In this document: positions 44,500 through 50,514 of the stretch, piece after piece
Layout of the letters: each line of letters starts with the position of its first letter
Position numbering within the stretch: position 1 is the stretch's first letter
Assembly (NCBI GenBank): GCA_963789265.1
Contig: CAWBKB010000005.1
Span: 544,001 to 608,000, forward strand
Length of the DNA stretch: 64,000 nucleotides
Source of the DNA: an uncultured delta proteobacterium
GTDB taxonomy: Bacteria; Desulfobacterota; Desulfomonilia; Desulfomonilales; Desulfomonilaceae
Direction of reading: 5' to 3'
Program-made: the position numbers and the translations under genes
The notes under the pieces: model-generated
Seen by the model: the letters and a program-made list of their open reading frames with translations, nothing else
Database searches by the model: none
Told to the model about the DNA's origin: nothing

Positions 44500-44554
44500 G
44501 ATTTTTCAATTCCTCGCGGCACTCTTTCACTTCCATAGTGAATCTGCTCCCCTT

Positions 44555-44698
44555 GTCATTGCGAGGAGTGAATGGTGGGGCAGGCTTCCAGCCTGTCTAT
44601 TAGGGATGACGGGCAATCCCGCGTTCCGCACGGGACATTCCACCGGCAATCTGAGCGATGTTTAGAGGAAAGGGTTGCTTCGCTTCGCTCGGAATGAC
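44555..44698. repeat. GTCATTGCG-type composite REP element
   Basis: gtcattgcgaggagtgaa...ttcgctcggaatgac enclosing gtggggcaggcttccagcctgtc and atcccgcgttccgcacgggac. Confidence 0.7.
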
Positions 44699-46423: not shown

Positions 46424-46727
46424 CGCCTCCCATTTGTCGGCTCACAACGATTGCCAAAATTAACATGTCTGTTCACACTGCATCCGCGTTTTTGTGGCCA
46501 GGGGGTCAGAAAATACAATTGCGCGGGCACGAAACAATTTGCTGCAATGGGTTCCTCGCCGTCGTTGTTTTCGCGCTTTCGAGACTCCGCGCTAAATGGT
46601 TCTATTAATCAAATTACTTCGTCCTTCGACTCCCCGCAATGAAAACCCCAGCAAATTAGGCAACAAATTGGGCCGCCGTCGATGGTCGTATTTCCTCATA
46701 AACATAAATTGTATCGGAAGTTTATAC

Positions 46728-46756
46728 TTGACAAACGCAAATATTTATGATACAGT
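46728..46756 (+). promoter_or_regulatory. Transposase promoter overlapping the left TIR
   Basis: TTGACA-N17-TACAGT with an extended -10 TG. Confidence 0.65.
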
Positions 46757-46789
46757 CCCCCCTAGATAATAAGCACAAAGGGGACTGCC

Positions 46790-47722
46790 ATGAAAGCCGA
46801 AACTTTAAACCTCGCTACTCTTTCCCCGCTGTTCGCCGACGAAGAGGCTGCCCGCAAATTTCTTGAAGCACAAAGATGGCTGAACGGTCCGGTGTGTCCC
46901 CGCTGTGGTAGCACAAGAGCACATGCGCTTACCCCGAGAGAAGGATCAAAGAGGCCGGTAAGAAAAGGTGTGTACTTTTGTGGCGGGTGCCGCAAGCAGT
47001 TCACGGTTAGGATAGGCACCATCTTTGAAGATTCTCATATTCCCTTGAACAAATGGCTTATAGCTTTCCATCTGATGTCGAGCAGCAAGAAGGGAGTCAG
47101 TTCCATGCAATTGCATCGTGAACTTGGCATCACTCTGAAGTCTGCCTGGTTCCTCAGCCACAGAATCAGGGAGGCTATGGCAGAGAAGCATGACGGCTTG
47201 TTGTGTGGAATTGTCGAAGTAGATGAAACATACGTCGGCGGTAAACCCCGTAAGGGCAGCAACGGCTCTAAGCGCGGCCGTGGCACTGATAAGATTCCTG
47301 TTATGGCTTTGGTAGAAAGAAATGGAAATGTTCGATCTAAGCCTGTCGAGCGCGTTAATGCAAAGGCTCTGAGAGGCGCAATTTTTGAGAATGTGGACAG
47401 AGGTGCTCACATTGTGACCGATGAATTTGCTGCCTATAATGGGATCGGGATGTACTATCGCAGCCACAAGAAAGTAAACCATAAGCAAGGTGAGTATTCG
47501 AGAGGCGACGTAACTACGAATACAGTTGAATCCTTTTTTGCTATCCTGAAACGTGGTCATTATGGGATCTTTCACAGCCTCAGCAAGCAACACCTGCATC
47601 GTTATTGCAACGAATTTGCCTTTCGGTGGAATAATCGCAAGGTGAGTGACGGCGAGCGTATGATTGCTGCTATAATGGGGGTAGAAGGCAAGAGGCTTAT
47701 GTATCGCCAGAGCGTAAACTGA
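46790..47722 (+). CDS. IS1595-family DDE transposase
   Basis: Zn ribbon CPRC/CGGC, HTH, VEVDETYVGG, VTDEF, TNTVESFF, YCNEFAFRWN. Confidence 0.95.
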   Translation: MKAETLNLATLSPLFADEEAARKFLEAQRWLNGPVCPRCGSTRAHALTPREGSKRPVRKGVYFCGGCRKQFTVRIGTIFEDSHIPLNKWLIAFHLMSSSKKGVSSMQLHRELGITLKSAWFLSHRIREAMAEKHDGLLCGIVEVDETYVGGKPRKGSNGSKRGRGTDKIPVMALVERNGNVRSKPVERVNAKALRGAIFENVDRGAHIVTDEFAAYNGIGMYYRSHKKVNHKQGEYSRGDVTTNTVESFFAILKRGHYGIFHSLSKQHLHRYCNEFAFRWNNRKVSDGERMIAAIMGVEGKRLMYRQSVN

Positions 47723-47735
47723 AGGGAAGGGGACA

Positions 47736-47957
47736 ATGTCCTCATCGGAGAAAAGTCAAATGAAGACCGCAAGCGCAAAGCGGAAGCGAAAAGAGAGCGC
47801 GGGCAAAGAGAAGCCGCCTGGCGAGAAACGGAAGCTGTGCAAACCGCTTTCGCTTTCATGTTTCACCTTTGATGAAATAGTAAAAACGGCTCTGGCAACC
47901 AAGCCGAAGAAGAAGGGCCAAGGTCAAAAGACAGAAGATGAGCCAGAAGACGGATGA
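47736..47957 (+). CDS. Small basic protein between the transposase and the methyltransferase
   Basis: Purine-rich RBS-like sequence upstream; fills the gap and overlaps the next start; core KPLSL..FTFDEIVKTALATKP. Confidence 0.55.
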   Translation: MSSSEKSQMKTASAKRKRKESAGKEKPPGEKRKLCKPLSLSCFTFDEIVKTALATKPKKKGQGQKTEDEPEDG

Positions 47958-49641
47958 ACGGAAAAATCAACTCTACTTTGGGGATAACCTCCAAATTCTC
48001 AGAGAGCATGTAGATGACGAGTCAGTTGACCTGATTTATCTTGACCCACCCTTCAACTCTCAGGCCACCTACAACGTGCTATTTGGAGAACAAGACGGTT
48101 CCCGATCTCAAGCTCAAATCGCCGCGTTCGAGGACACGTGGGAATGGAGTGCTGAGGCTGAATCTATCTATCGTGAAGTGGTCACTGAAAAACCTGGAAG
48201 GCTTGCCGATTTTCTTCAGGCTTTACGAAGCATTCTCAAAAGTAGCAATATGATGGCTTATCTAGTAATGATGTCTCCCAGATTACTGGAACTCCACAGA
48301 ATCCTAAAATCATCTGGAAGTATCTATCTTCATTGCGACCCAACGGCGAGTCATTACCTTAAACTATTGATGGATACGATTTTCGACCCGAGGAATTTTA
48401 GGAATGAAATCATCTGGAAAAGGACTGGCGCACACAGTTCAGCTAAAAAATTTGGGCCTGTCCACGACACGCTTTTATTCTACTCAAAGTCATCGGATTA
48501 TAAATGGCTGCCCATCTTTCAACCATACGGTGAACACTATTTGGCGACTAAATATCGGTACGAAGATGAACGAGGTACGTATAGATTAGTCGATCTGACC
48601 GCTGCTGGATTGAGAACCGGCTCAAGTAAACCCTGGCGAGGCTGCAATCCAGAAGAAAAGGGCCGACATTGGGCTGTACCAAATAGCATCCTTGCTTCTC
48701 TCGTAGACATTGACAAAAACCGAAGCATGTCTACGAATGCAAAGCTAGACTTGTTAGATGGACACGGCTATATTTATTGGCCCGAAAAGGGAAGAAAAGA
48801 AGAAAGGGGGCGCCCTCACTATAAACGGTACCTAACAGGCGGCATACATGCTCAAGACGTGATTACCGATATTCCCCCTATTAATTCCCAAGCGAAGGAA
48901 CGACTCCATTATCCTACTCAAAAACCCGAAGCCCTCTTAGAGCGCATCATTAAGGCTTCCAGTAATAAAGGGGATATCGTGCTCGACCCCTTCTGTGGTT
49001 GCGGGACTACAATTAACGTCGCCGAACGCCTGCATAGAAGATGGATCGGGATTGATATTACTCACCTCGCAATCGCTCTTATCAGGAACCGGCTTCAAGA
49101 CACGTTTGCAACGGAGCTTTCCCCTTATGAGGTTCTGGGTTCCCCGAAAGACCTGTCCAGCGCTAAGGCCCTCGCTCTTCAGGATCGTTATCAATTTGAG
49201 TGGTGGGCTTTGAGCCTTGTAGAGGCCCGGCCTGCCCAGGACAGGAAAAAAGGCGCAGATTCAGGCATCGACGGTTACATTAACTTCTTTGACGACGGAA
49301 GCGGGAAAGCTAAGAAAATCATTGTCCAGGTGAAAAGCGGACACATAGGCGTTAAAGAAATGAGGGATTTTATCCATGTGGTTGACCGAGAGAAGGCAGC
49401 AATTGGGGTCTTTATAACCCTTGAATCACCTACCGGACCGATGAAGGACGAGGCTCTCGCGGCCGGTTATTACTCGCCCGAACGCCTCGCCAAGGAACAC
49501 ACCGCACTGAAGATCCAAATTGTCACTATAGGGGAACTACTTGGCGGTGTTCAGATCCGATATCCGCGCATGCTCGTAACTACGTTCAAAAGGGCTGAAC
49601 GGAAGTATAAAGATAGTCCTCAGCAAGATAACTTGTTATGA
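47938..49641 (+). CDS. Beta-class N6-adenine/N4-cytosine DNA methyltransferase with a C-terminal Mrr-like PD-(D/E/Q)xK nuclease domain
   Basis: LYFGDNL, YLDPPFN, YPTQKPEALL, LDPFCGCGTT; C-terminal ADSGIDG...IIVQVKSG and GVFITL. Confidence 0.88.
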   Translation: MSQKTDERKNQLYFGDNLQILREHVDDESVDLIYLDPPFNSQATYNVLFGEQDGSRSQAQIAAFEDTWEWSAEAESIYREVVTEKPGRLADFLQALRSILKSSNMMAYLVMMSPRLLELHRILKSSGSIYLHCDPTASHYLKLLMDTIFDPRNFRNEIIWKRTGAHSSAKKFGPVHDTLLFYSKSSDYKWLPIFQPYGEHYLATKYRYEDERGTYRLVDLTAAGLRTGSSKPWRGCNPEEKGRHWAVPNSILASLVDIDKNRSMSTNAKLDLLDGHGYIYWPEKGRKEERGRPHYKRYLTGGIHAQDVITDIPPINSQAKERLHYPTQKPEALLERIIKASSNKGDIVLDPFCGCGTTINVAERLHRRWIGIDITHLAIALIRNRLQDTFATELSPYEVLGSPKDLSSAKALALQDRYQFEWWALSLVEARPAQDRKKGADSGIDGYINFFDDGSGKAKKIIVQVKSGHIGVKEMRDFIHVVDREKAAIGVFITLESPTGPMKDEALAAGYYSPERLAKEHTALKIQIVTIGELLGGVQIRYPRMLVTTFKRAERKYKDSPQQDNLL

Positions 49642-49962
49642 CGCTACGTAATCCTTCAGTCTACTCGAACTAGCCTGTATTCCCACCGCGATGCTCTCGA
49701 TATAGACCTTTTCATGATTGTATCTATACAAAACTTCGATAGGTGGGAATCTGCCTGAAATGTGCAAATACAACCCAATACCTAAACTGGCACAGACGAC
49801 GCCCCTGATGCCGACTTCATCCGGGCGAGCAGCAAGCATCATTTCTATCTTGCGATAGGTTCGATCAAATTCCGGTGAATCTACGGTCCAAGAATCTACT
49901 GTTGATTCTGCCGCATGCTCTAATACGACTGTTCTAACCCTGCAATCAATAACAGAGCCCAT
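49636..49962 (-). CDS. Hypothetical protein, possibly RelE/ParE-like fold
   Basis: 108 aa with RBS AGGAG; strand-helix-helix start (RTVVLEHAAE...LAARP) and terminal hairpin IEVLYRY...VYIESI. Confidence 0.5.
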   Translation of the reverse strand: MGSVIDCRVRTVVLEHAAESTVDSWTVDSPEFDRTYRKIEMMLAARPDEVGIRGVVCASLGIGLYLHISGRFPPIEVLYRYNHEKVYIESIAVGIQASSSRLKDYVAS

Positions 49963-50342
49963 TTTGAATGTACTCCTAGCCCGTAAGCCACAAAAGACTT
50001 GACACCCGTCAGCTTCTATGATTTAAACGAGCTACGCCCTTTGGGCAAAATAGGCACTTTAGCCCATTCCCAGCGGACGAGAAGAGGACAGGCTGCTACC
50101 TGTCTCAGTTAAAATTTACCTGCACCAATCTGCAAACACTAAAACGACCGGACGCGCCCTACGCCTCCCGGTGTTTATGGGCGCATCATTATCGCCGCAC
50201 ATCGCACTTGTCAAGCAAAATTATATACTTAAAGCCATTTCCGCGAAAGTACGCGAACTTCCTAAATTTACTAAGAGAACCTGATTCGTCTTGATTCTGT
50301 GTGTTTAGATGGGATAATGAAAATTCTGATCCTCTAAGCGAG

Positions 50343-50371
50343 ATAGTAAGCTAGGCTGGTGCGTTTGTCAA
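50343..50371 (-). promoter_or_regulatory. Inward-facing promoter overlapping the right TIR
   Basis: Minus strand TTGACA-N17-TACTAT. Confidence 0.6.
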
Positions 50372-50514
50372 GTATAAACTTCCGAATTGTATTCCACAGC
50401 TAATAATGTCAAGAGATTACAGCAATAATGGAGACTTTAGCGAAAATACAAAATCAAACTGTGATTATAAAAGTCACTCATTATCGGAGAAAAAATGTCT
50501 TTGCCTTCCACAAT

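What the first reader, a model, noticed from the sequence alone, without database searches (positions are those of the whole stretch)
46707..50392. Intact IS1595 cargo element carrying a one-gene methyltransferase-nuclease and a RelE-like ORF
Seen: perfect 25-bp TIRs and a perfect 8-bp target duplication (aattgtat) enclose the transposase plus about 2.6 kb of cargo: a 73-aa basic ORF, a 567-aa DPPF/FxGxG methyltransferase with a C-terminal D-G-I-D-G...Q-V-K nuclease-like domain, and a convergent 108-aa ORF. Known: IS1595-family members make 8-bp duplications and some subgroups carry passenger genes. Inferred: a recent insertion that mobilises a compact restriction-modification/defence or self-maintenance module using a single pair of ends.
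Basis: partly seen in the sequence, partly recalled or inferred. Interest (0 to 1): 0.8.

Follow-up and report, generated by a model that had tools for sequence, protein, structure and literature searches.

The report
Cargo-carrying IS1595 transposon with methylase-nuclease
This is an intact 3.7-kb jumping gene of a known type (an IS1595-family "transporter" insertion sequence) that carries a DNA methylase fused to a nuclease domain and a toxin-like small gene; it is a well-preserved example of an already described kind of element.

Summary
Window 46715-50384 is a 3,670-bp element with perfect 25-bp inverted ends and a perfect 8-bp duplication (aattgtat). A same-genus genome has the orthologous site empty. 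The element encodes four genes:
- an IS1595 transposase (zinc ribbon plus DDE domain);
- a 73-aa basic micro-protein;
- a 567-aa beta-class adenine-type methyltransferase fused to an Mrr-type nuclease domain, with D445 and Q464-V-K466 invariant in 21 of 21 aligned homologues;
- a convergent 108-aa ORF whose predicted fold is RelE/ParE (Z 10.8), with no antitoxin gene beside it.

Eight sibling elements, each with its own 8-bp duplication, carry the same or different cargo. Two more of them lie in this genome, and one of those two is decayed. The micro-protein travels with the transposase, not with the methylase.

The methylase-Mrr fusion belongs to a very large, uncharacterised family of solitary genes. 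Only 1 of 80 fetched genome loci has the transposase beside it, and phages carry full-length homologues too. Whether the fusion cuts DNA is untested. The closest characterised analogue is BtgZI.

Verdict: a real and intact element, but a new member of a known kind (transporter IS of the IS1595 family). Earlier notes of this scan describe the same kind on other DNA. Interest is modest.

The parts
46707..46714 (.). left copy of the 8-bp target-site duplication (aattgtat)
   Evidence: a single diverged 8-mer stands at the orthologous empty site in G001
46715..46739 (+). left terminal inverted repeat, 25 bp, starting CGGAAG; contains TTGACA
   Evidence: the same type of end is seen in the siblings
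46728..46756 (+). promoter-like site (TTGACA, 17 nt, TACAGT) reading inward towards the transposase; consensus match only
   Evidence: 10 of 12 matches; 9 sites found in the region against 5.0 +/- 2.0 in shuffles, so not significant on its own
46790..47722 (+). IS1595-family transposase, 310 aa (N-terminal zinc ribbon plus DDE domain)
   Evidence: Pfam PF12762 at 1.8e-42 and PF12760 at 8.7e-11; NCBIfam NF033547 at 215 bits against a cut-off of 75
47736..47957 (+). 73-aa basic micro-protein with the core KPLSLSCFTFDEIVKTALATKPKKK; starts 13 nt after the transposase stop and overlaps the methyltransferase start by 20 nt
   Evidence: homologues occur in sibling elements whatever their cargo, and not next to the non-IS methyltransferase loci
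47938..49641 (+). 567-aa beta-class (DPPF then FxGxG) DNA methyltransferase fused to a C-terminal Mrr-type PD-(D/Q)xK domain
48478..48897 (+). least conserved middle part of the methyltransferase (about residues 181-320), the presumed target-recognition region
   Evidence: majority fraction 0.46-0.70 against 0.8-0.95 in the catalytic blocks; no DNA match here to the in-genome sibling
49189..49455 (+). Mrr_cat domain (residues 418-506) with D441, D445, Q464, V465 and K466
   Evidence: these residues are invariant in 21 of 21 aligned sequences
49636..49962 (-). 108-aa ORF with a RelE/ParE-type predicted fold; convergent with the methyltransferase and overlapping it by 6 nt
49963..50359 (-). 397-bp stretch without a credible ORF between the 108-aa ORF and the right end; unique to this element
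50343..50371 (-). mirror-image promoter-like site in the right end (TTGACA, 17 nt, TACTAT) reading inward towards the 108-aa ORF; consensus match only
50360..50384 (-). right terminal inverted repeat, 25 bp
50385..50392 (.). right copy of the 8-bp target-site duplication (aattgtat)

Best explanation
What it is. The region is an intact, autonomous 'transporter' insertion sequence (tIS) of the IS1595 family.

Shown. One pair of 25-bp inverted ends and one 8-bp target duplication enclose a transposase operon (transposase, then a basic micro-protein, then a methyltransferase-Mrr fusion) and a convergent RelE/ParE-fold gene. The whole block is absent from the orthologous site of a same-genus genome. 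Sibling elements with the same ends carry the same or other cargo.

Inferred.
- The zinc-ribbon/DDE transposase binds the CGGAA...TTGACA ends and inserts the whole 3.67 kb into AT-rich 8-mers.
- A promoter-like site inside the left end drives the three-gene operon.
- The micro-protein is a component of this IS clade (a transposition accessory or regulator), not of the cargo.
- The methyltransferase-Mrr protein is most likely a solitary one-chain restriction-modification enzyme. It would methylate adenine at a site read by its variable middle region and cut unmethylated DNA with its D...QxK domain, as BtgZI does. That would give the element a defence and/or addiction function.
- The RelE/ParE-fold protein would be a second, toxin-type maintenance gene.

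My odds: the identity of the element about 0.9 or higher; the restriction activity of the fusion about 0.45.
For: Element.
- Perfect ends and duplication; the end sequence is unique to these two places in the genome.
- Empty site: in G001 contig C7 the left flank (82% identity, up to window 46703) and the right flank (84%, from window 50390) lie 9 bases apart.
- All 9 bounded elements delimited, this one included, have a perfect 8-bp duplication, and 8 of the 9 duplications are at least 75% A+T. They are WIN, L012, L142, L144, L145, L098, L102, L104 (with the L104 ends re-read) and L172.

Transposase family. The 8-bp duplication and the zinc finger are family traits (PMC8101967, Introduction passage).

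Passenger-carrying IS are a described class that includes IS1595 members (PMC11891212 passage citing Siguier 2009).

Micro-protein.
- It is present in L012, L056, L093, L094, L095, L098, L103, L107, L119, L123, L142, L144 and L172, in differing positions.
- Among the 80 methyltransferase loci from genomes (L013-L092) the profile hit only L056, the one locus with a transposase, plus one weak non-adjacent hit in L071 (E 0.008).
- It gave 24 matches in 8 of 41 related genomes. Of these, 11 have the transposase within 1.5 kb, 1 more lies in the L144 element, and 3 more have a transposase 1.5-2.5 kb away.

Methyltransferase-Mrr fusion.
- Domains.
- D441, D445, Q464, V465 and K466 are invariant in 21 of 21 sequences.
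- No conserved neighbour: the largest neighbour cluster occurs in 6 of the 80 genome-contig loci.
- Variable middle region.
- Precedent of an N-terminal methyltransferase plus a C-terminal PD-QxK nuclease acting as a restriction enzyme: BtgZI (PMC4081073, section 'Type IIC').

108-aa ORF.
- 8 homologues, the best four at 46-49% identity and E of about 1e-16 to 1e-18.
- AlphaFold model with an 8-row alignment: pLDDT 83, pTM 0.74.
- VIA-align Z 10.8, rmsd 2.1 A, 82 of 88 residues aligned to archaeal RelE 1wmi_A. RelE, ParE, YoeB, HigB or YafQ toxins fill nearly all of the top 50 rows.
Against: - No activity was or can be measured here.
- PF22722 (an 'inactive restriction endonuclease' family) scores almost as well as Mrr_cat (34.4 against 36.4 bits).
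- The helix glutamate in YQFEWW is Q in 4 of 21 aligned sequences.
- Full-length homologues (42-45% identity, at least 80% coverage) occur in 28 phage records. Phage methyltransferases usually serve to escape restriction (my own knowledge).
- The fusion is transposon-borne in only 1 of 80 genome loci.
- The sibling copy in this genome has a broken transposase and a broken methyltransferase despite perfect ends, so the cargo is not always kept.
- This element is single-copy in the genome, and public contigs showed no excision or empty-site joint (low depth, so not informative).
- The RelE-like ORF matches no toxin HMM and has no antitoxin ORF: the longest same-strand ORF upstream is 32 aa with a TTG start.
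- The promoter-like sites are consensus matches only.
Confidence: 0.6

Rival explanations
1. The element is a tIS as described, but the methyltransferase-Mrr protein is not a restriction enzyme. It would be a solitary (orphan or anti-restriction) adenine methyltransferase whose Mrr-fold domain acts as a DNA-binding, targeting or oligomerisation module. The element would then spread a protective or regulatory methylation mark rather than a weapon.
For: 28 phage records encode full-length homologues annotated only as methyltransferase. PF22722 'inactive REase' scores close to Mrr_cat. The fusion stands alone in varied neighbourhoods. The sibling copy has decayed without visible harm. Sources name family members 'site-specific DNA-methyltransferase' far more often than 'restriction endonuclease'.
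Against: D445 and Q464-x-K466, the Mrr-type catalytic residues, are invariant in 21 of 21 sequences spanning several phyla. That is hard to explain for a mere binding module. BtgZI shows that a methyltransferase plus a PD-QxK domain can be an active restriction enzyme. The variable recognition region beside conserved catalytic blocks is the pattern of specificity-switching R-M enzymes.
Confidence: 0.3
2. The Mrr domain works as in Mrr itself, as a modification-dependent (Type IV) nuclease against foreign methylated DNA. The fused methyltransferase would supply sequence targeting or a compatible self-mark.
For: The best Pfam match of the C-terminal domain is the catalytic domain of the methyl-directed enzyme Mrr (PMC3424549 table row for Mrr_cat).
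Against: Pfam lists no Mrr-type N-terminal DNA-binding domain for this protein at E up to 0.1. A methyl-dependent nuclease tethered to an active methyltransferase risks attacking the cell's own DNA (inference). Type ISP enzymes and BtgZI use Mrr-like or QxK domains against unmodified DNA (BtgZI; Type ISP: my own knowledge).
Confidence: 0.07
3. The cargo is not part of the mobile unit. A plain IS would have landed next to resident genes, and the distal 'end' would be a chance or solo repeat.
For: The right 743 bp, apart from the end itself, has no counterpart in any sibling element.
Against: The empty site in G001 lacks the whole 3,670 bp, cargo included. The duplication flanks the whole unit. 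The distal repeat is a perfect 25-mer found nowhere else in the genome. Transposase, micro-protein and methyltransferase are spaced as an operon (a 13-nt gap, then a 20-nt overlap). Four other bounded or partly bounded elements repeat the pairing of transposase and methyltransferase-Mrr fusion (L012, L144, L145, L056), and contig L095 shows it too.
Confidence: 0.03

Closest known systems
Transporter IS (tIS) of the IS1595 family (Siguier, Gagnevin and Chandler 2009, seen only as cited in PMC11891212; ISNha5 named there as an example with a transcription-regulator passenger)
   Same: IS1595-type zinc-ribbon plus DDE transposase, short inverted ends, 8-bp duplication, passenger genes inside one pair of ends. 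The third element of this genome (L172) carries an SLFN_AlbA_2 + HATPase_c_4 protein, a domain pair commonly annotated as a regulator (that annotation habit is recalled).
   Different: The passengers here are a methyltransferase-Mrr fusion and a RelE/ParE-fold gene. This clade also has a conserved micro-protein that I found mentioned in none of the passages I read. The subgroup (my recollection: ISNha5 group, ends CGGnnTT, 3.4-7.9 kb) could not be checked, because ISfinder and the 2009 paper are not held.
BtgZI, Type IIC/IIS restriction-modification enzyme (PMC4081073, section 'Type IIC')
   Same: One chain with an N-terminal methyltransferase and a C-terminal PD-(D/E)xK variant in which Q replaces E, as in the QVK motif here.
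   Different: The paper calls the BtgZI methyltransferase alpha-class, while this one has the beta-class motif order (DPPF before FxGxG). No sequence comparison was possible because no BtgZI sequence was available. Activity here is untested.
Type IIG/IIL single-chain R-M enzymes (MmeI, BpuSI, Eco57I)
   Same: Methylation, recognition and cleavage in one polypeptide; a solitary gene; a swappable specificity region.
   Different: Those enzymes have an N-terminal nuclease and a gamma-class methyltransferase (PMC4081073; PMC2582602 abstract in the listing). Here the nuclease is C-terminal and the methyltransferase is beta-class and Type III Mod-like (PDB matches to EcoP15I Mod and 6k0w; PADLOC MTase_III profiles).
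Mrr (Type IV methyl-dependent restriction enzyme)
   Same: The catalytic domain family (PF04471) and the D...QxK motif.
   Different: No Mrr-type N-terminal DNA-binding domain; it is fused to a methyltransferase instead.
RelE/ParE superfamily toxins of type II toxin-antitoxin modules
   Same: Predicted beta-alpha-alpha-beta-beta-beta(-beta) fold, Z 10.8-8 to RelE, ParE, YoeB, HigB2 and YafQ structures; similar size.
   Different: No HMM match, no adjacent antitoxin gene, catalytic residues not assigned. It belongs to a very rare family: 8 other representatives among 1.84 billion, and none in the 400 other genomes searched in the phylum.
Actinophage methyltransferases (for example Mycobacterium phage Amgine gp37, Streptomyces phage Yasdnil gp48)
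   Same: Full-length homologues at 42-45% identity covering both domains.
   Different: They are phage-borne, not transposon-borne, and are annotated only as methyltransferase.

Membership tests
IS1595 family insertion sequence | DDE transposase of the ISXO2/IS1595 type | tested here: met
   PF12762 full length (2-153 of 153), E 1.8e-42; NF033547 at 215 bits against a cut-off of 75
IS1595 family insertion sequence | N-terminal IS1595 zinc-ribbon domain (present in all subgroups except IS1016, per PMC8101967 Introduction) | tested here: met
   PF12760 at E 8.7e-11, residues 17-70
IS1595 family insertion sequence | terminal inverted repeats and an 8-bp target-site duplication | tested here: met
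   25 of 25 bp in the ends and 8 of 8 bp in the duplication; 9 of 9 delimited elements of the clade have 8-bp duplications (L104 ends re-read)
Transporter IS (tIS) | passenger genes unrelated to transposition lie inside the single pair of ends and move with them | tested here: met
   empty site lacking the whole unit; siblings with the same ends and different cargo
ISNha5 subgroup of IS1595 | subgroup-specific end sequence and length range as listed in ISfinder (recalled as CGGnnTT and 3.4-7.9 kb; no call confirms this) | not testable with these tools
   ISfinder and Siguier 2009 are not held. The ends here start CGGAAGTT, and the siblings' ends start CGGAATT, CGGAACTT or CGGAAATT
Beta-class N6-adenine/N4-cytosine DNA methyltransferase (PF01555) | motif IV (D/S)PP(Y/F) before motif I FxGxG, with a recognition region between them | tested here: met
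   DPPF at 36-39 and FCGCG at 352-356, both invariant; PF01555 at E 7.2e-47. Adenine rather than cytosine is inferred from DPPF and the NCBIfam adenine-specific hits, not shown
Single-chain (Type IIC/IIG-like) restriction-modification enzyme | nuclease catalytic residues present and conserved in the same chain as the methyltransferase | tested here: met
   D441, D445, Q464, V465 and K466 invariant in 21 of 21 sequences; Mrr_cat at 36.4 bits against a cut-off of 21
Single-chain (Type IIC/IIG-like) restriction-modification enzyme | no separate partner endonuclease or methyltransferase required (solitary gene) | tested here: met
   no neighbour family in more than 6 of the 80 genome-contig loci; no other methyltransferase or nuclease gene inside the element
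Single-chain (Type IIC/IIG-like) restriction-modification enzyme | site-specific cleavage of unmodified DNA and protection by its own methylation | not testable with these tools
   needs biochemistry or restriction assays
Mrr-type Type IV restriction enzyme | N-terminal Mrr-type DNA-binding domain ahead of Mrr_cat | tested here: not met
   the Pfam scan at E up to 0.1 lists no such domain; the N-terminus is the methyltransferase
RelE/ParE toxin superfamily | RelE/ParE fold | tested here: met
   model pLDDT 83; Z 10.8, rmsd 2.1 A, 82 residues aligned to 1wmi_A; Foldseek E about 1e-2, probability about 1.0. This is a predicted structure, not a solved one
RelE/ParE toxin superfamily | match to a family HMM (ParE_toxin and related models) | tested here: not met
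   no toxin-family hit for any of the 8 family members at E up to 10; the one weak hit was an unrelated family (PF21170, E 0.097). No NCBIfam or PADLOC hit; no PDB sequence hit with the profile. Language-model neighbours include 4 of 30 clusters with ParE-type Pfam families, which is a lead only
RelE/ParE toxin superfamily | adjacent cognate antitoxin gene | tested here: not met
   the longest same-strand ORF in the 397 bp upstream is 32 aa with a TTG start; downstream lies the convergent methyltransferase

The most novel reading that the evidence does not exclude
This clade of IS1595 transporter elements would have a dedicated, so far undescribed micro-protein (core PLSLxPLTF(D/E)E(A/I)V..LL..KPKK between lysine-rich tails) that is an obligatory transposition accessory or copy-number regulator. 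The element in this window would pair a one-chain restriction-modification enzyme with a solitary RelE/ParE-fold toxin, kept in check by something other than a protein antitoxin (for example its 397-nt leader RNA, or convergent transcription from the methyltransferase gene). That would make it a transposon-borne two-layer addiction and defence kit.
Probability: 0.12. Interest if true: 0.6.

Novelty: new member of a known kind. Interest (0 to 1): 0.3.

Why it matters
The element shows, with an empty-site control, that small IS1595-type transposons move whole methyltransferase-nuclease genes and toxin-like genes as one unit, and that they swap such cargo between siblings within one bacterial family. 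That is one concrete route by which the very common, untested methyltransferase-Mrr fusions spread.

The intact copy here and the decayed sibling in the same genome give a natural pair for testing three questions: whether the fusion restricts DNA, whether the micro-protein is needed for transposition, and whether a RelE-fold protein without an antitoxin is toxic.

None of this overturns current views. Passenger-carrying IS, solitary methyltransferase-nuclease fusions and RelE/ParE folds are all known.

Tried and rejected
- Single-sequence fold of the 108-aa ORF: pLDDT 36, useless. It was replaced by an alignment-based model.
- Word-based homologue search for the 108-aa ORF found only the query itself. 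The exhaustive HMMER search found 8 relatives.
- Profile of the 108-aa family against 400 other genomes of the phylum: not found in those searched.
- Rfam on the element at E up to 1: no match.
- RNA fold of the 383-nt leader upstream of the 108-aa ORF: z -2.44, 1 of 100 shuffles as good. Suggestive at most.
- Right 743 bp against all sibling elements by blastn and tblastx: only the terminal repeat matches.
- Protein Atlas for the micro-protein: best score 0.89, unnamed clusters, no lead.
- PADLOC: only generic methyltransferase profiles; nothing for the other three ORFs.
- PDB sequence search for the fusion: methyltransferase domains only (CcrM, MboIIA, EcoP15I Mod and others), and no solved full-length relative.
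- Plasmid collection with the transposase: 477 records, all below 60% identity (listed best 45.5%). The small ORF after the best hit's transposase is unrelated to the micro-protein.
- Sequencing runs: no RNA holder listed. Three DNA runs of one study are kept as low-depth contigs. One contig bridges the left junction with 0 differences. No joints were seen, so there is no information on excision, polymorphism or expression.
- Papers: Siguier 2009 and the 'Everyman's guide' are not held. Searches for 'Mrr_cat' with 'N6_N4_Mtase', and for 'Mrr_cat' with 'methyltransferase' and 'fused', found no paper on this architecture. I therefore cannot say from these two searches alone that the family is untested in print.
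- Idea that the micro-protein belongs to the methyltransferase: rejected. It also occurs in elements without the methyltransferase (L098, L142, L172), and among the 80 methyltransferase loci it appears only in the one with a transposase, L056.

Full report
**Observation**

- CGGAAGTTTATACTTGACAAACGCA stands at 46715-46739, and its exact reverse complement at 50360-50384.
- aattgtat flanks both ends, at 46707-14 and 50385-92.
- With up to three mismatches the 25-mer occurs only at these two places in the 6.06-Mb, 9-contig genome. The reversed control occurs nowhere.
- Inside are four ORFs: 46790-47722 + (310 aa), 47736-47957 + (73 aa), 47938-49641 + (567 aa) and 49636-49962 - (108 aa). A 397-bp stretch without a credible ORF follows, up to the right end.

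**It is a mobile unit, shown by an empty site**

I searched 8 kb around the element against 40 related genomes plus the window's own. One same-genus genome, G001 (contig C7), has both flanks:
- the left flank up to window 46703 (82% identity; 87-89% further out);
- the right flank from window 50390 (84%).

The two flanks lie nine bases apart in G001. The alignment shows a single diverged 8-mer (GGCTCTAT) where the window has AATTGTAT, then the element, then AATTGTAT again. Neither the ends nor any cargo is present there. 'Recent' is only relative. The ends and the duplication are undecayed and all ORFs are open, but the only comparison genome is about 15% diverged in the flanks.

**Family of the element**

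The transposase has the IS1595 zinc ribbon and the full ISXO2/IS1595 DDE domain. It passes NCBI's IS1595 model by a wide margin. The 8-bp duplication and the zinc finger are family traits (PMC8101967, Introduction passage). IS with passenger genes ('transporter IS') are a described class that includes IS1595 members (PMC11891212 passage citing Siguier et al. 2009). The 2009 paper itself is not held. My recollection that the ISNha5 subgroup has CGGnnTT ends and lengths of 3.4-7.9 kb could not be checked.

**Siblings**

Eight further bounded elements with related ends (CGGAA...(C/A)TTGACA..., or GGCGACG...CTTGACA in L104) were delimited, each with its own perfect 8-bp duplication.

In this genome:
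- L012 3429-7144 (3,716 bp, duplication AAATCAAT). It has the same order of transposase, micro-protein and methyltransferase-Mrr fusion, followed by an unrelated 105-aa convergent ORF. The transposase is split in two and the methyltransferase in three.
- L172 2924-6175 (3,252 bp, AATAAATT). It has an intact transposase, an SLFN_AlbA_2 + HATPase_c_4 protein and the micro-protein.

In same-genus genomes:
- L142 (2,815 bp, AATTATTA). Its DNA is 82% identical to the window over the left end, transposase and micro-protein, but it has no methyltransferase.
- L144 (4,489 bp, AAAATAAA). It carries the methyltransferase-Mrr fusion, the micro-protein after it, and a DUF2158 gene.
- L145 (4,664 bp, TAAAATTA). 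It carries a P63C protein and a broken methyltransferase-Mrr fusion.

These three rest.

In metagenome contigs:
- L098 (3,080 bp, AAATAATA), with a SecB-like ORF, two other ORFs and the micro-protein at the far end.
- L102 (2,784 bp, ATTTTATT).
- L104 (AAGGGTTT), with P63C and DUF6731 proteins.
- L108 looks like a plain 1.1-kb IS.

These rest. A Cytophagia genome contig (L056) has the transposase, the methyltransferase-Mrr fusion and the micro-protein, with a decayed left end and no clear duplication. Eight of the nine duplications are at least 75% A+T.

**The micro-protein belongs to the IS, not to the cargo**

Its core motif (KPLSLxxFTFDEIVxTALxTKPKK here) recurs next to the transposase or near the far end in 13 loci, whatever the cargo.
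- A three-sequence profile searched over the 80 methyltransferase loci from genomes (L013-L092) hit only L056, the one locus with a transposase. There was also one weak non-adjacent hit, in L071 (E 0.008).
- A ten-sequence profile finds 163 proteins of 40-117 aa, all unnamed or 'hypothetical', mostly on short contigs.
- In 41 related genomes (the window's own included) the profile gave 24 matches in 8 genomes. Eleven have the transposase within 1.5 kb, one more lies in the L144 element, and three more have a transposase 1.5-2.5 kb away. The other nine were not followed.
- No library names the protein.

In the window it starts 13 nt after the transposase stop and overlaps the methyltransferase start by 20 nt. 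The three genes therefore look like one operon, behind a promoter-like site that begins in the left end (consensus match only). I infer that the micro-protein is a transposition accessory or regulator. That is untested.

**The methyltransferase-Mrr fusion**

- The motif order (DPPF at 36-39, FCGCG at 352-356) is beta-class.
- The best solved relatives cover the methyltransferase only: CcrM, MboIIA, EcoP15I Mod.
- Residues 418-506 match Mrr_cat above the Pfam threshold. PF22722, an 'inactive REase' family, scores nearly as well.
- In an alignment of 21 sequences from several phyla, D441, D445, Q464, V465 and K466 are invariant. The D...QxK pattern is that of Mrr (my own knowledge).
- The middle of the protein is the least conserved part. 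It has no DNA similarity to the in-genome sibling, although both flanking parts match at 70-78%. That is the pattern of a swappable recognition region.
- The family is huge: all 8,000 scored candidates were significant, and the 120 listed share 57-77% identity.
- The fusion is a solitary gene. No neighbour family occurs in more than 6 of the 80 genome-contig loci, and only 1 of those 80 has an IS1595 transposase beside it.
- 28 phage records encode full-length homologues.
- The closest characterised analogue I could document is BtgZI, an N-terminal methyltransferase with a C-terminal PD-QxK nuclease that cuts at GCGATG 10/14 (PMC4081073, section 'Type IIC').

My preferred reading is a one-chain restriction-modification enzyme, at about 0.45. 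The main rival is an orphan or anti-restriction methylase with a non-cutting Mrr-fold module, at about 0.3. Only biochemistry can decide between them.

**The 108-aa ORF**

- It has no HMM match in Pfam, NCBIfam or PADLOC and no word-based homologue.
- The exhaustive search found eight relatives. Four are full-length at 46-49% identity (E of about 1e-16 to 1e-18), so it is a real but rare gene family.
- With that alignment AlphaFold gives pLDDT 83 and pTM 0.74, with the order beta-alpha-alpha-beta-beta-beta-beta.
- Foldseek's top rows are RelE, PfiT, HigB2 and ParE toxins at E of about 1e-2.
- VIA-align gives Z 10.8 (rmsd 2.1 A, 82 of 88 residues) to archaeal RelE. Toxins of this superfamily fill nearly all of the top 50 rows.
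- Language-model neighbours include ParE-type clusters.

What is unusual is the lack of an antitoxin. The 397 bp upstream hold no same-strand ORF above 32 aa, and the downstream neighbour is the convergent methyltransferase. That upstream stretch matches nothing in Rfam and folds only slightly better than shuffles. This right arm is unique to the element.

**Comparison with what is known, and novelty**

The element meets every testable defining feature of an IS1595-family transporter IS. Passenger-carrying IS1595 elements are in print, methyltransferase passengers are in print for another IS family, and earlier notes of this scan (AI notes, unchecked) describe IS1595 elements with methyltransferase-nuclease fusions and a micro-protein on other DNA. 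I therefore rate it a new member of a known kind.

The points that go a little beyond the known are these:
- the clade-wide micro-protein;
- the combination with a solitary RelE/ParE-fold gene;
- the clean natural series (an intact copy, a decayed sibling, a sibling with other cargo and an empty site) that makes the functional questions testable.

**Limits**

- No activity, methylation motif, transcript or transposition event was observed.
- The public runs holding the sequence are low-depth contigs of one study and gave no joints.
- The gene contexts of the 108-aa ORF's homologues could not be fetched.

Noticed in passing
L012 3429-7144 (G000 contig C1, about 774429-778144): Second element of the same clade in this genome. 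It has perfect ends (CGGAATTATTCACTTGACACGACC) and a perfect duplication AAATCAAT, but its transposase (193 + 106 aa) and its methyltransferase-Mrr fusion (74 + 352 + 226 aa) are broken. In place of the RelE-like gene it carries an unrelated acidic 105-aa convergent ORF with no family match.
   Followed up: partly
L172 2924-6175 (G000 contig C1, about 1493423-1496674): Third sibling element in this genome: 3,252 bp, duplication AATAAATT. It has an intact IS1595 transposase, a 469-aa SLFN_AlbA_2 + HATPase_c_4 protein as cargo, and the micro-protein near the right end.
   Followed up: partly
window 46728-46756 (+) and 50343-50371 (-): Both terminal repeats contain TTGACA, followed 17 nt later, just inside the element, by a -10-like hexamer. 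Both ends may therefore carry inward-facing promoters. TTGACA or a near copy sits at the same place in the ends of most siblings. This rests on consensus matches only.
   Followed up: no
window 49963-50359: 397-bp non-coding stretch between the RelE-like ORF and the right end. It is unique to this element and has no Rfam match. Its RNA fold is slightly more stable than shuffles (z -2.44). Its purpose is unknown.
   Followed up: partly
window about 44549-44698: A stretch of about 130-150 nt upstream of the TetR-like gene is repeated at 80-92% identity at five or more other places in this genome and in many related genomes (rows with query positions about 50-200). It is not a tRNA and matches no Rfam family. 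It looks like a small dispersed repeat or MITE.
   Followed up: partly
L144 3135-3554 (-) and L102 7468-7959 (+): Two sibling elements carry small proteins that look alike by eye (a coiled-coil N-terminus and a winged-helix-like C-terminus) but have no Pfam match. They may be a further recurrent passenger of this IS clade.
   Followed up: no
P0023, P0031 and other 632-643-aa forms (alignment): Some methyltransferase-Mrr homologues have an N-terminal extension of about 70 aa containing 'GLTFDEIAEEYG', which faintly recalls the micro-protein core (FTFDEIV). Pfam finds no domain there. This may be coincidence.
   Followed up: partly
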